The notes under the pieces were generated by a model, which did not search any database, was not told where the DNA came from, and saw nothing but the letters and a program-made list of their open reading frames with translations. Of a DNA stretch of 30,940 nucleotides, positions 1 to 2,548 are shown one piece after another; position 1 is the stretch's first letter; every line of letters starts with the position of its first letter. Source of the stretch: a virus (taxonomy: Duplodnaviria > Heunggongvirae > Uroviricota > Caudoviricetes); the IMG/VR virus record IMGVR_UViG_2684622670_000017, one strand, 5' to 3'. Both the position numbers and the translations under genes were made by a program.

Positions 1-237
1 ATGGAACTGTTTGTCATTTCTTCAAAACTCCCTTTGCGTAAACGCATTAAACTGGTCATCCCACTTTTTAAAGGTGTTATGACCATCCTCTGTGGTTACA
101 ACTGGTCGCTTAAATTCAGACCTGCTGGGAAAGCGCAGGCCGACGGGTTAAGCTTTGACGTCTATCAGGACGACGTTACATCGCAAGGTGCGCTTATCGT
201 CTTGGTCGATAGCAAACGGACTATGCTGCATGATTAG
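1..237 (+). other. Flanking ORF of unknown function downstream of int; may be host DNA or the attL junction
   Basis: 78-aa ORF starting at base 1; no recognisable motif. It lies beyond the 3' end of int, where the prophage/host junction is expected. Confidence 0.15.
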
Positions 238-240
238 TTA

Positions 241-1251
241 TCAAACCGTTAAACCTCCCTTTAGCGGGTTTAATGCTACTGCGTTTTGCAGGTAATCAGG
301 TGCAAGGTGCGCGTAGGCCATCGTCTGCTGAATGCTTGCGTGTCCGAGAATCTGTTGCAACGCAATAATATTGCCCCCGTTCATCATGAAATGGCTTGCG
401 AAGGTATGGCGCAGGATATGGGTTGCCTGATTGGGTGGGATATCAGGTTTTACTCTGCGTAAAATTCCACAAAACTTCTCATAATCGACCTTGAACAATT
501 TAGCGCTGGCCTCCTCTTTAACTTTCTTCTCCAGTTCCTCAGAAATCGGCACGGTTCGCTTTTTACCGTTTTTGGTTTTCAGGAAGGTAACCCTACAACT
601 TGTAATCTGTGCTGGTTTTAGCGTGGCAACTTCCGTCCATCTTCCTCCAGTGCTCAGACATAAAAGCGCGACAAGTAAGTCATCACCAGTCAAAACATTT
701 AACAGTTTTTTGATTTCTGCTTTTTCCAGGAACGTCATTTCCGGGTTGGCTTCCGCCAGTGGCGGCAGTCCGTGAATCGGATGTTGCCCGGAAAACTCAT
801 CTAGCTGGATTAGCTTGGTGAACATGCCCGATAAGCGGTACATGTCACGATTTATCGTCGCCGCGCTGATGCCATCGCGTAGACGAGCAGAGCGGTAATC
901 CATCAGGCATTTTTTATTTAACCTGCTGACCTGTATGTCACCCAATCCGCTGATGGTTTTGCGCAAATGCCCTCGCTCTTTTTCTCCGTGTTCGTGATTC
1001 TGGCCGTGATACTTCCACCATGCCTCTAACAGCTCTGACAGGGAGCGGCGGTCTGTTCGCTGGCCTGCCCATTCTTTCTGGCTGGCGTTGGCGATTGTGT
1101 ACCGCTCAAATGCCACCGCCTCAGCTTTTCTTTCAAACTTCCTGCGGATGCGTTTTCCGTCGCGACCGCGAGGTCTAATGTCCACTTCATAGCGACCATC
1201 ATCGAGCTTCTTAATTGACATAAGAAAGCCCTCCGGCGCTGTACTCACCAT
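241..1251 (-). CDS. int: Tyrosine site-specific integrase (P2 Int-like)
   Basis: 336 aa. C-terminal catalytic region has the tyrosine-recombinase pattern (..ATHILRHTFASHF..GHASIQQTMAYAHL..). Position and orientation match P2 int, co-directional with and downstream of C. Confidence 0.93.
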   Translation of the reverse strand: MVSTAPEGFLMSIKKLDDGRYEVDIRPRGRDGKRIRRKFERKAEAVAFERYTIANASQKEWAGQRTDRRSLSELLEAWWKYHGQNHEHGEKERGHLRKTISGLGDIQVSRLNKKCLMDYRSARLRDGISAATINRDMYRLSGMFTKLIQLDEFSGQHPIHGLPPLAEANPEMTFLEKAEIKKLLNVLTGDDLLVALLCLSTGGRWTEVATLKPAQITSCRVTFLKTKNGKKRTVPISEELEKKVKEEASAKLFKVDYEKFCGILRRVKPDIPPNQATHILRHTFASHFMMNGGNIIALQQILGHASIQQTMAYAHLAPDYLQNAVALNPLKGGLTV

Positions 1252-1290: not shown

Positions 1291-1584
1291 TTAACCAGTC
1301 TGTTTCTCGGAGCGGTCTGATTCTGTTGGTTCTCGCCCAATGTGTGCGAGAGCCGGTGCAATCTGACCAGCTTGCGGAGCTGTTTTATCTGTCATTAGCC
1401 AAAGGGTGTATTTCTGAAACTGAGGGGTGTTTGTGATTTTCATCACCACTCCCAAGCCGGGCTCTGCATGTCCTCCCTCGTAATTTTTTAACGTGCTAAG
1501 TGCTAGGCCGCTGATTTCACAAAACTTTACTTGAGTTAAACCCTCTGCTTTACGTATTGCCTTAATTTTATCGGCTACTTTCAT
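1291..1584 (-). CDS. C: Immunity repressor, P2 C-family (HTH)
   Basis: 97 aa, directly upstream of int on the same strand and divergent from cox. N-terminal HTH-like segment (GLTQVKFCEISGLALSTLKNYEGG); C-terminal segment (PQFQKYTLWLMTD..GQIAPALAH) is as I recall for P2 C-type repressors. Confidence 0.8.
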   Translation of the reverse strand: MKVADKIKAIRKAEGLTQVKFCEISGLALSTLKNYEGGHAEPGLGVVMKITNTPQFQKYTLWLMTDKTAPQAGQIAPALAHIGREPTESDRSEKQTG

Positions 1585-1738
1585 TTGACATGGTTCCTAG
1601 TTAAAGACTATATTGCCGCAAAAGGTCTAAAGGTAAGAACCTTTTGGGGTGCACAAACCAGTCCCTAGTAAGGACAGGAGTGACTTGTAAGGGACTGGAA
1701 CTAACAAGGGTAACACGAAAGCAAAAAGGGGCTAACCA
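1585..1738. promoter_or_regulatory. C/cox genetic switch region: expected divergent Pc/Pe promoters with candidate operator inverted repeats
   Basis: Intergenic region between divergent C and cox. Contains perfect inverted repeats CCAGTCCCT...AGGGACTGG (about 22 bp apart) and AAAAGGT...ACCTTTT. Confidence 0.5.
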
Positions 1739-2011
1739 ATGGGAGTCAATGACTATGTGATTCAGTACCCGCTTGATGCGGTACATACGGTTAAGTTTGC
1801 AGAGTTACTTGGTAAGCCAGAAACGGCGGTAGTCAAGATGGTAAAAGAAAATAAATTGCCAGTTATTGAGCTTCGGGATCCAAGTAAGCCGAACGCTCGT
1901 GTCGGTGAGAAGTGGGTTTTTATTCCAGAGTTTAATCGTGCTGTGCGTGAGGCATTCTACAACCGACCGGTTGAACAGCGCGACGCGTGGCTGCTGTGGA
2001 TGGGGCTTTAA
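1739..2011 (+). CDS. cox: Cox-like excisionase / early-promoter regulator
   Basis: 90 aa (P2 Cox is about 91 aa); first gene of the rightward early operon, divergent from C. Confidence 0.8.
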   Translation: MGVNDYVIQYPLDAVHTVKFAELLGKPETAVVKMVKENKLPVIELRDPSKPNARVGEKWVFIPEFNRAVREAFYNRPVEQRDAWLLWMGL

Positions 2012-2258: not shown

Positions 2259-2433
2259 TTAACTGGAGGCTAATTTCTCCTCGAGCTTTTTTTCCAATAC
2301 TGGATAAATCGAGTCAAAGAGACGTTGAGTGTGCTTATCCAGCGTAACGTTGGGGTTCATGTGAGGTATGGAGGAGCTGATTACCACGCAAGTTTGCTCA
2401 AAGAGAAATTTTACCTTTTCTTCATTATTCATG
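2259..2433 (-). CDS. Hypothetical small protein encoded antisense to the early operon (internal ATG start chosen)
   Basis: ORF 2259..2516 on the minus strand; an internal Met (MNNEEKVKFLFEQ...) is preceded by AAGGGA about 9 nt upstream. Tentative. Confidence 0.25.
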
Positions 2434-2548
2434 ATTTTTTCCCTTGTGTTATTAACTAATTGCATACATGTGGAGTGTAGCGTTTGGAGCATATCACAAG
2501 ACCATGTGCCGGACATGGCTAAAAACCGGCTCTGTTTCAGGAGGAGTT

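What the first reader, a model, noticed from the sequence alone, without database searches (positions are those of the whole stretch)
1585..1738. Genetic switch with inverted-repeat candidate operators and a repressor likely of non-P2 immunity
The C-cox intergenic region carries two clear inverted repeats: CCAGTCCCT/AGGGACTGG and AAAAGGT/ACCTTTT. As far as I recall, P2 C binds direct repeats, so palindromic operators here would suggest a different immunity specificity. The repressor's N-terminal HTH half also looks different from what I recall of P2 C, while the C-terminal half looks conserved.
Basis: partly seen in the sequence, partly recalled or inferred. Interest (0 to 1): 0.4.

Follow-up and report, generated by a model that had tools for sequence, protein, structure and literature searches.

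The report
P2-like phage switch, new immunity class

Summary
Both inverted repeats exist: I2 at 1616-1626/1639-1649 and I3 at 1658-1666/1690-1698. The region is the C-cox intergenic switch of a Peduovirus prophage. The repressor is not P2 C (46% identity; N-half 32%, C-half 60%) and not WPhi C (74%). Neither the P2 nor the WPhi operator half-site is present.

The Cox/Pc side is WPhi-type (Cox 98%). A roughly 300-bp immunity cassette (C helix-turn-helix plus Pe operator) has been swapped in.

The flagged repeats do not determine immunity. WPhi, whose operators are mapped direct repeats, carries both of them. Their stems covary across dozens of heteroimmune relatives.

The class-specific sequence lies in the Pe spacer (O1, 1593-1608) and in the loop of I2 (O2, 1625-1640). 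In phages with the same recognition helix these 16-mers are inverted copies (12-14/16). In the window they match 11/16. Recognition-helix residue 30 (S or G) tracks the AGAC or TGAC tetramer at both sites.

Prediction: C binds an inverted pair bracketing the -10 and +1 of Pe. The three characterised family members all use direct repeats. All of this is computational.

The parts
241..1221 (-). int, a tyrosine integrase; second gene of the lysogenic operon
   Evidence: Pfam Int_N plus Phage_integrase. 90-100% nt identity to WPhi int, except a diverged patch at 801-1040.
1291..1584 (-). C, a P2-type immunity repressor of 97 aa; recognition helix around residues 27-36 (LALSTLKNYE)
   Evidence: HTH_3 and phrog_147. 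74% identical to WPhi C and 46% to P2 C. Residues 14-47 are invariant in its 90% cluster.
1585..1614 (+). Early promoter Pe: -35 TTGACA 1585-1590, 18-nt spacer, -10 TATATT 1609-1614; predicted +1 at about 1621
   Evidence: 11/12 consensus match. Homologous to the annotated WPhi Pe. The +1 is placed using the 82-nt Pe/Pc transcript overlap reported for WPhi.
1593..1608 (+). Predicted operator half-site O1, GTTCCTAGTTAAAGAC. Its 3' tetramer AGAC abuts the -10. Its 5' part is the complement of the C ribosome-binding site (AGGAA, 1594-1598 on the minus strand).
   Evidence: Same position as WPhi O1. The tetramer covaries with recognition-helix residue 30. Matches rc(O2) at 11/16.
1625..1640 (-). 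Predicted operator half-site O2, GTCTAAAGGTAAGAAC (reverse complement GTTCTTACCTTTAGAC). It is an inverted copy of O1, 32 bp centre to centre, with the dyad at 1616/1617.
   Evidence: Relatives with the same helix reach 12-14/16 inverted and only 6-9/16 direct.
1616..1649 (.). Arms 1616-1626 and 1639-1649, 12-nt loop; it encloses O2.
   Evidence: Covariation on 37 distinct relatives: 86% of cells paired, 7/11 pairs with changes on both sides, 0/500 shuffles. A natural 1618 G>C variant repairs the single mismatch.
1658..1698 (.). Arms 1658-1666 and 1690-1698. It starts 4 nt from the predicted 5' end of the Pc transcript.
   Evidence: Arms are identical in WPhi. Covariation at stem positions 4-6 across 34 relatives, 0/1000 shuffles.
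1664..1698 (+). WPhi-type Cox operator repeats (CCTAGTAAGGACAGG and CTTGTAAGGGACTGG), lying inside and overlapping I3
   Evidence: The WPhi counterpart, CCTAGAAAGGACAGG / CCTAGAAGGGACTGG 20 bp apart, is the only other direct repeat in the WPhi switch. WPhi Cox binds a 12-nt direct repeat in the Pe-Pc region (PMC5009727). Window repeats. The assignment to Cox is inferred.
1702..1739 (-). Lysogenic promoter Pc: -35 TTGGTT 1739-1734, 18-nt spacer, -10 TGTTAC 1715-1710, predicted +1 at about 1702
   Evidence: Homology with the annotated WPhi Pc (AJ245959 1875-1911, complement).
1739..2011 (+). cox, the first gene of the early operon; WPhi-type
   Evidence: Phage_Cox. 98% aa identity to WPhi Cox.

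Best explanation
The region is the bistable switch of a P2-like (Peduovirus) prophage of Escherichia. Pe fires rightward into cox and Pc fires leftward into C-int. The two promoters face each other, and their transcripts should overlap by about 82 nt.

Relative to WPhi, the Cox/Pc half is conserved. A roughly 300-bp immunity cassette (window about 1361-1660), carrying the helix-turn-helix half of C and the Pe operator, has been replaced.

C is a P2-type repressor of a distinct and experimentally uncharacterised immunity class. That class is common in prophages of Escherichia, Salmonella, Klebsiella and Citrobacter.

Predicted mechanism (inferred): one C dimer binds each of two asymmetric 16-bp sites. 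O1 is 1593-1608, in the Pe spacer and ending AGAC next to the -10. O2 is 1625-1640, beginning GTCT just after +1. The sites are inverted relative to each other, 32 bp centre to centre. Together they bracket the -10 and the start site and so occlude Pe.

They are stems conserved by covariation in heteroimmune relatives. I2 frames O2 and sits at the 5' end of the Pe RNA and in the C mRNA leader. I3 frames the Cox repeats and sits 4 nt from the 5' end of the Pc RNA. They most likely act as RNA stem-loops, for example as 5'-terminal stabilisers; that function is inferred, not shown.
For: Identity of the switch:
- Gene order and families.
- Closest phage is WPhi, 82% nt over the switch. Cox is 98% identical and C 74%.
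- The 40-nt identity profile shows the swapped cassette.
- The rest of the prophage is about 96% identical to P2-like coliphages.

New immunity class:
- No complete E. coli genome exceeds 85% nt identity over this region.
- The best isolated phage C is 79% identical.
- No P2 or WPhi half-site lies in the region.
- The published criterion is at least 95% identity within a class (PMC3448106).
- The exact protein is recorded in Escherichia. Its 90% cluster is widespread and has an invariant helix-turn-helix.

The flagged repeats are not operators:
- Both are present in WPhi, whose operators are mapped direct repeats.
- Stem covariation.

Operator assignment:
- O1 16-mer against reverse-complemented O2 scores 12-14/16 in same-helix relatives (L019, L027, L032, L059). 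The cross-class null has mean 7.7, and 12 or more occurs in 0.7% of null pairs. The direct score in those relatives is only 6-9.
- The window scores 11/16 inverted. No unrelated O1 exceeds 9 against its O2.
- Helix residue 30 = G goes with TGAC (11 of 12) and S goes with AGAC, never crossed. This residue aligns with P2 Gly32, on the DNA-facing side of helix 3.
- A Salmonella variant with S30G has GTGAC and GTCAC at O1 and O2, so both sites changed in concert and in inverted orientation.
- The class consensus matches the 30.9-kb window only at O1 and O2.
- Genomes with the identical C show no variation in O1 or O2.
Against: - There is no binding or expression data for this repressor.
- All three characterised family members (P2, P2 Hy dis, WPhi) use direct repeats.
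- In the window the inverted pair is only 11/16. As 10-mers it is 6/10, while a direct candidate (AGGTAAGAAC, 1631-1640) scores 7/10.
- Relatives L052 and L053, which have nearly the same O1, show weak pairs in either orientation.
- The left part of O1 is also constrained by the C ribosome-binding site.
- G-U counts do not say which strand's RNA uses I2. The outer I2 pairs lie upstream of the predicted Pe start.
- The promoter start sites are taken from homology and are not mapped.
Confidence: 0.68

Rival explanations
1. One reading: the two perfect inverted repeats (AAAAGGT/ACCTTTT and CCAGTCCCT/AGGGACTGG) are palindromic operators of C and account for its new specificity.
For: Both repeats are real and exceed chance. 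I2 overlaps the predicted O2 by 2 nt on each side, and it lies just after Pe +1, where a repressor could act.
Against: Both repeats occur in heteroimmune WPhi, one with identical arms, yet WPhi C binds TATTGGTGAC x2. The inner arms are invariant across classes with different recognition helices, and the outer arms covary freely within one class. That is the reverse of what a specificity determinant should do. I3 sits about 40-80 bp downstream of Pe +1, in the Cox/Pc part.
Confidence: 0.06
2. C binds direct repeats, as WPhi C does: AGTTAAAGAC (1599-1608) and AGGTAAGAAC (1631-1640), 32 bp apart and flanking the -10.
For: Matches 7/10 in the window. 5 of the 7 variable positions agree, which about 2% of cross-class pairs reach. 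It has the same positions and nearly the same spacing as WPhi O1/O2, and it fits the published rule for the family.
Against: Relatives with the identical recognition helix and the same O2 region score only 6-9/16 direct, against 12-14/16 inverted. The direct candidate ends GAAC rather than the class tetramer AGAC. GAAC is also found in other classes, because it belongs to the conserved I2 frame.
Confidence: 0.2
3. The O1/O2 inverted repeat serves mainly at the RNA level. In the Pc (C-int) mRNA leader the two segments pair, hide the C ribosome-binding site, and compete with the I2 hairpin, giving translational control of C.
For: The minimum-energy fold of the leader uses this long-range pairing and covers AGGAA in L059, L027 and L060. 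The pairing excludes I2.
Against: It is not the minimum-energy fold in the window, L019, L032 or P37. Direct-type relatives (WPhi, L012, L097) cannot form it, yet they keep O1 and O2 at the same places. The covariation between protein residue 30 and the tetramer points to protein recognition. It may be an additional effect rather than an alternative.
Confidence: 0.1
4. I2 and I3 act on DNA rather than RNA. They could be cruciform or bend elements that help C or Cox load, or simply recombination substrates that let the operator between the arms invert.
For: G-U-compatible mismatches are equal on both strands (15 against 16). The outer I2 pairs lie upstream of the predicted Pe +1. The O2 loop of Arsenophonus L012 is the inversion of the phage P37 loop (10/12 reversed against 4/12 direct) with the same O1. 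The published in vivo/in vitro discrepancies for C binding were attributed to supercoiling.
Against: Both stems lie within a few nt of the predicted 5' ends of the two transcripts, a position where RNA stem-loops have a known role. The full I2 is present in the Pc transcript. P2 itself has an 8-bp repeat at the 5' end of its Pc RNA.
Confidence: 0.2

Closest known systems
Transcriptional switch of coliphage WPhi (immunity class III of P2-like phages)
   Same: Same layout: C-int leftward from Pc, cox rightward from Pe, facing promoters, and a predicted 82-nt transcript overlap. Cox is 98% identical. The Pc region, the Cox repeats and I3 are nearly identical, and an I2-like stem is present. O1 and O2 occupy the same positions.
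   Different: C is only 74% identical (17/23 in the helix-turn-helix). The operator TATTGGTGAC is absent. The Pe spacer is 18 nt rather than 17. O2 is predicted to be inverted rather than direct. The GATC at Pc +1 is lost.
Phage P2 C repressor and operator (class I; crystal structure in PMC2995052)
   Same: Same protein family and size. The C-terminal half is 60% identical. A symmetric dimer uses helix 3 as its recognition helix. Two half-sites flank the -10 of Pe.
   Different: The N-terminal half is 32% identical. P2 half-sites are the 8-bp GTTTAGAT, direct and 22 bp apart. The P2 transcripts overlap by about 35 nt, with a single inverted repeat. P2 Cox and its cox-boxes are of another type.
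Yersinia phage P37 and related prophages (L060, Citrobacter L010)
   Same: P2-type C, the same I2 and I3 frame, and an O2 that is an inverted copy of O1 at the same offset (13-14/16).
   Different: Different recognition helix (ALGTLKNYE) and half-site (TTAATGAC). C is 73% identical. The Cox type differs. As far as the searched library shows, the P37 operators have not been studied either.
Phage 186 / Fels-2 type switch (CI, Apl, CII)
   Same: Peduovirus relatives with facing lytic and lysogenic promoters. The 186 CI protein does bind inverted repeats (PMC1904263).
   Different: CI is an unrelated two-domain protein of about 190 aa, with distal sites and a cII gene. None of this is present here; C is 97 aa and P2-type.

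Membership tests
P2-type C/Cox transcriptional switch (Peduovirus) | [quoted passage not shown] | tested here: met
   ORFs and Pfam: HTH_3 97 aa, Phage_Cox 90 aa, integrase. phrog_147.
P2-type C/Cox transcriptional switch (Peduovirus) | Face-to-face promoters Pe and Pc in the C-cox spacer | tested here: inconclusive
   Pe is an 11/12 consensus match. Pc is found only through homology with the annotated WPhi Pc. Start sites are not mapped.
P2-type C/Cox transcriptional switch (Peduovirus) | Conserved C-terminal half of C (KYTLW.MT...GQIAPALAH) | tested here: met
   Alignments.
P2-type C repressors as binders of two direct repeats | Operator consists of two directly repeated half-sites | tested here: inconclusive
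   Sequence analysis favours an inverted pair (class relatives 12-14/16 inverted against 6-9/16 direct; window 11 against 9; tetramer rule).
WPhi immunity class (class III) | C at least 95% identical and operator TATTGGTGAC x2 | tested here: not met
   C is 74% identical. No such half-site with up to 2 mismatches lies in 1585-1738. Criterion from PMC3448106.
P2 immunity class (class I) | C about identical to P2 C and operator GTTTAGAT x2, 22 bp apart | tested here: not met
   46% identity. No half-site lies in the region.
WPhi-type Cox module | Cox protein of WPhi type, with its direct repeat between Pe and Pc | tested here: met
   Cox is 98% identical. The repeats are conserved with a few changes. 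Binding is not testable here.
186-type CI/Apl/CII switch | Two-domain CI of about 190 aa plus a cII gene | tested here: not met
   The repressor is 97 aa and P2-type. No such ORF is present.
Any described RNA family (Rfam 15) | A covariance-model match at the gathering score | tested here: not met
   The only hit is a sub-threshold chance match: ar15, 19 bits against a gathering score of 40, E = 0.35.

The most novel reading that the evidence does not exclude
P2-type C repressors are not obligate direct-repeat binders. In this immunity class, and in several others (P37-like, Kosakonia L006, L091/92), the second half-site is an inverted copy of the first. It sits in the loop of a conserved inverted repeat (I2), and evolution has flipped it there: compare P37 with Arsenophonus L012. 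A single recognition-helix position (S or G at residue 30) reads A or T in the xGAC tetramer. In addition, I2 and I3 are functional stem-loops that cap the 5' ends of the two convergent switch transcripts.
Probability: 0.5. Interest if true: 0.55.

Novelty: new member of a known kind. Interest (0 to 1): 0.4.

Why it matters
P2 C is the textbook case of a symmetric helix-turn-helix dimer that reads direct repeats. The generalisation that all classes do so rests on three phages.

If this widespread class uses an inverted pair at the same positions, half-site orientation is free. That fits a model of one dimer per half-site with loose coupling between dimers. It also gives a simple, testable amino-acid-to-base rule for how new immunities arise.

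The two covarying stems are a conserved part of the switch that I found described nowhere in the papers I could search. They could affect the balance of C and Cox expression.

On the practical side, the result defines an immunity group common in Klebsiella, Salmonella and Escherichia prophages. That is relevant to predicting superinfection exclusion.

Tried and rejected
- Taking the window's own direct repeat as the operator. It scores 7/10 but is not kept in same-helix relatives.
- Treating ATGGTTCCTA as an operator element. It is largely the complement of the C ribosome-binding site plus the spacer.
- Reading I2 or I3 as intrinsic terminators. No U-run follows either on either strand. The scanner's only nearby hit (1675-1661, minus strand) is a weak 6-bp stem inside the I3 loop.
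- Using G-U against A-C counts to assign I2 to one strand. The result was a tie, 15 against 16.
- Rfam search: no family.
- MAFFT alignment of the raw region misplaced gaps in the outer stem. I therefore re-extracted 38-nt segments anchored on GGT-N12-ACC.
- The two key older papers could not be read (Karlsson 2006, PMC1482927; Liu 1999, PMC113030). Their content is cited only through later papers.
- One script mixed alignment rows with loci of the same name. Its comparison was discarded and redone.
- A scan for further operator copies elsewhere in the prophage found none.

Full report
**What is there.**
- Window 1585-1738 is exactly the spacer between a 97-aa helix-turn-helix gene on the minus strand (1291-1584) and a 90-aa gene on the plus strand (1739-2011). 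An integrase lies downstream of the first gene.
- Pfam assigns HTH_3, Phage_Cox and phage integrase to the three genes. PHROGs places the repressor in phrog_147.
- The rest of the window is about 96% identical to P2-like coliphages. This is therefore the C-cox switch of a Peduovirus prophage.
- The exact C protein is recorded as a multispecies Escherichia protein, including E. marmotae. It lies on 25 contigs read by the look-up.

**The observation.**
- Both inverted repeats are present. I3 is CCAGTCCCT 1658-1666 / AGGGACTGG 1690-1698 (9/9). I2 is AAAAGGT / ACCTTTT, extending to CCGCAAAAGGT 1616-1626 / ACCTTTTGGGG 1639-1649 (10/11).
- A perfect repeat of at least 9 bp appears in 2.8% of dinucleotide shuffles of the region. 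Both repeats together appear in 0.4%.
- Each hairpin folds with z of about -3.2 to -3.5 on either strand.
Against P2 C the N-terminal half is 32% identical and the C-terminal half 60%.

**Closest relative and mosaic structure.**
- The nearest characterised phage is WPhi, at 82% nt identity over the switch. Cox is 98% identical to WPhi Cox, but C is only 74% identical.
- A 40-nt identity profile shows 90-100% identity in the N-terminal part of int, in the 3' end of C, and from about 1660 through cox. Between them lies a 60-78% patch at about 1361-1660. That patch covers the helix-turn-helix half of C together with the Pe operator region. This is a swapped immunity cassette.
- Neither the WPhi half-site TATTGGTGAC nor the P2 half-site GTTTAGAT occurs in the spacer.
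- No complete E. coli genome exceeds 85% nt identity over the region. The best C from an isolated phage is 79% identical (Salmonella phages SI7, SW3 and SW5).
- By the field's criterion of at least 95% identity within an immunity group (PMC3448106), this is a different and uncharacterised class.
- The class is not rare. The 90% cluster has 85 members. Members are seen on hundreds of Klebsiella and Salmonella contigs, and residues 14-47 are invariant. A 95%-identical E. coli variant has the same switch sequence.

**Why the flagged repeats are not the operators.**
- WPhi carries both: TCAAAAGGT/ACCTTTTGA, and CCAGTCCCT/AGGGACTGG with identical arms. Its C has nevertheless been shown to act through the direct repeat TATTGGTGAC x2, 34 bp apart (PMC1904268 and PMC1904263).
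- I collected about 100 relatives of the C gene with their upstream DNA. Almost all have a stem-loop at the I2 position.
- I built a gap-free alignment of 37 distinct sequences anchored on GGT-N12-ACC. On it, 86% of cells pair, 7 of 11 pairs show changes on both sides, and no shuffle in 500 reaches the observed covariation.
- The I3 stem (CCARYCC...GGRYTGG) covaries as well. At stem position 4, G-C occurs 18 times and A-T 10 times. Pairing is 73% against 67.5% in shuffles, 0/1000.
- Among genomes with the identical C, one carries 1618 G>C, which repairs the only mismatch in I2.
- The inner arms are the same in classes with different recognition helices, and the outer arms vary within one class. 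These stems therefore cannot encode specificity.
- What differs between classes is the I2 loop and the Pe spacer. What differs between Cox types is the I3 loop.
- In WPhi the only direct repeat apart from the C operator is CCTAGAAAGGACAGG / CCTAGAAGGGACTGG, inside I3. I take this to be the 12-nt repeat bound by WPhi Cox (PMC5009727). The window keeps it with a few changes.

**Where C most likely binds.**
- I defined O1 as the 16 nt upstream of the -10, and O2 as GT plus the I2 loop plus AC. I then compared every phage's O1 with its own O2 in both orientations. The background was O1/O2 pairs taken from unrelated classes. That null has mean 7.7/16 for the inverted comparison, and 12 or more occurs in 0.7% of pairs.
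- Phages with the same recognition helix as the window score 12-14/16 inverted (L019, L027 and L032 at 13; L059 at 14). Their direct scores are only 6-9.
- WPhi, L012, L034 and L097 score 11-14 direct, as expected. P37, L060 and L092 score 13-14 inverted.
- The window scores 11/16 inverted, and no unrelated O1 exceeds 9 against its O2. Its direct score is 9.
- A second, independent line of evidence comes from recognition-helix residue 30, which aligns with P2 Gly32 on the DNA-facing side of helix 3. It tracks the tetramer next to the -10. G goes with TGAC in 11 of 12 distinct cases and S goes with AGAC, with no crossing.
- A Salmonella member of the window's own cluster carries S30G. It has ...GTGAC at O1 and GTCAC... 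at O2, so both sites changed together and in inverted orientation.
- In the window only the inverted candidate carries the class tetramer (GTCT 1625-1628). The direct candidate ends in GAAC, which belongs to the class-independent frame.
- The class consensus finds only these two sites in 30.9 kb.
- I therefore predict O1 = 1593-1608 and O2 = 1625-1640, with the dyad at 1616/1617. Together they enclose the -10 (1609-1614) and the predicted +1 (about 1621).
- The published model has one dimer per half-site, with only one helix reading the repeat. WPhi C binds a single half-site and tolerates changes in spacing. Both facts make a flipped half-site mechanistically plausible.
- P37 and Arsenophonus L012 share the same O1, and their O2 loops are reverse complements of each other (10/12 reversed against 4/12 direct). 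O2 orientation has therefore flipped in evolution, possibly by recombination across the I2 arms.

**What the stems may do.**
- Pc was placed by homology with the WPhi annotation and its reported 82-nt overlap: -35 at 1739-1734, -10 at 1715-1710, +1 at about 1702. Pe +1 falls at about 1621.
- I3 then begins 4 nt from the 5' end of the Pc RNA. The inner I2 stem begins at the 5' end of the Pe RNA. The complete I2 lies in the C mRNA leader.
- P2 has a single 8-bp repeat at the 5' end of its Pc RNA.
- From general knowledge, 5'-terminal stem-loops protect E. coli mRNAs from 5'-end-dependent decay. That is my preferred reading, but nothing here tests it.
- G-U counts do not favour either strand, so a role on DNA cannot be excluded.
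- In the C leader, O1 and O2 RNA can also pair with each other and cover the ribosome-binding site, in competition with I2. This is the minimum-energy fold in some relatives but not in the window.

**Verdict.**
- The claim of non-P2 immunity is correct, and I would add that the immunity is not WPhi's either.
- The claim that the two visible palindromes are the operators is not supported.
- The object is a new, uncharacterised member of the P2/WPhi family of switches.
- The more interesting and still unproven point is that its operator, like that of several other classes, appears to be an inverted pair. The searched literature describes this family as binding direct repeats only.

Noticed in passing
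L003 (phage P37) and L012 (Arsenophonus nasoniae), switch regions: Both have the same O1 (GTCCTGACTTAATGAC) and nearly the same recognition helix, but O2 has opposite orientation. The 12-nt I2 loop of L012 is the reverse complement of the P37 loop (10/12). This suggests the operator was inverted by recombination across the I2 arms.
   Followed up: partly
window C residue 30 (codon at 1495-1497) and 1605-1608 / 1625-1628; loci L004-L112: Recognition-helix residue 30 predicts the operator tetramer across the family: G goes with TGAC and S with AGAC. This is a candidate one-residue/one-base specificity rule.
   Followed up: yes
window 1697-1701 (GGAAC); relatives: In 28 of 34 distinct relatives the I3 right arm is followed by ATC, which places a Dam site (GGATC) at the predicted Pc start. 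The window has GGAAC and so lacks the site.
   Followed up: no
window 1585-1703, minus strand; L059, L027, L060: The C mRNA leader can adopt two exclusive folds. One has the I2 hairpin and a free ribosome-binding site. The other has a long-range O2:O1 helix that buries AGGAA. The second is the predicted minimum-energy fold in some relatives.
   Followed up: partly
L103 (GCA_017756525.1), equivalent to window 1618: Among genomes with the identical C, one has G>C at 1618, which turns the only I2 mismatch (G-G) into a C-G pair. Other variants are 1648 G>A, 1658 C>T and the common 1681 T/C. None falls in O1 or O2.
   Followed up: yes
window 1-237 (+): A 78-aa ORF next to int has no PHROG match. 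The same 260 nt lie beside a phage integrase in E. coli strain 600029 (97%), with 88% matches in 11 other genomes. It is possibly a cargo gene at the attachment-site end.
   Followed up: partly
window 2259-2516 (-): An 85-aa ORF runs opposite to the early operon, between the orf78-like gene and the next early gene, in a lower-GC stretch (41%). It matches phrog_14615, of unknown function.
   Followed up: partly
window 801-1040 (within int): A second diverged patch relative to WPhi (62-78% nt) sits inside an otherwise 90-100% identical integrase gene. This suggests another recombination patch.
   Followed up: no
L098 (phage P2) 1433-1458: P2 itself has a perfect 8-bp inverted repeat, TTTAGTGC/GCACTAAA, just downstream of the annotated Pc -10, at the predicted 5' end of the C mRNA. 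It parallels I3.
   Followed up: partly
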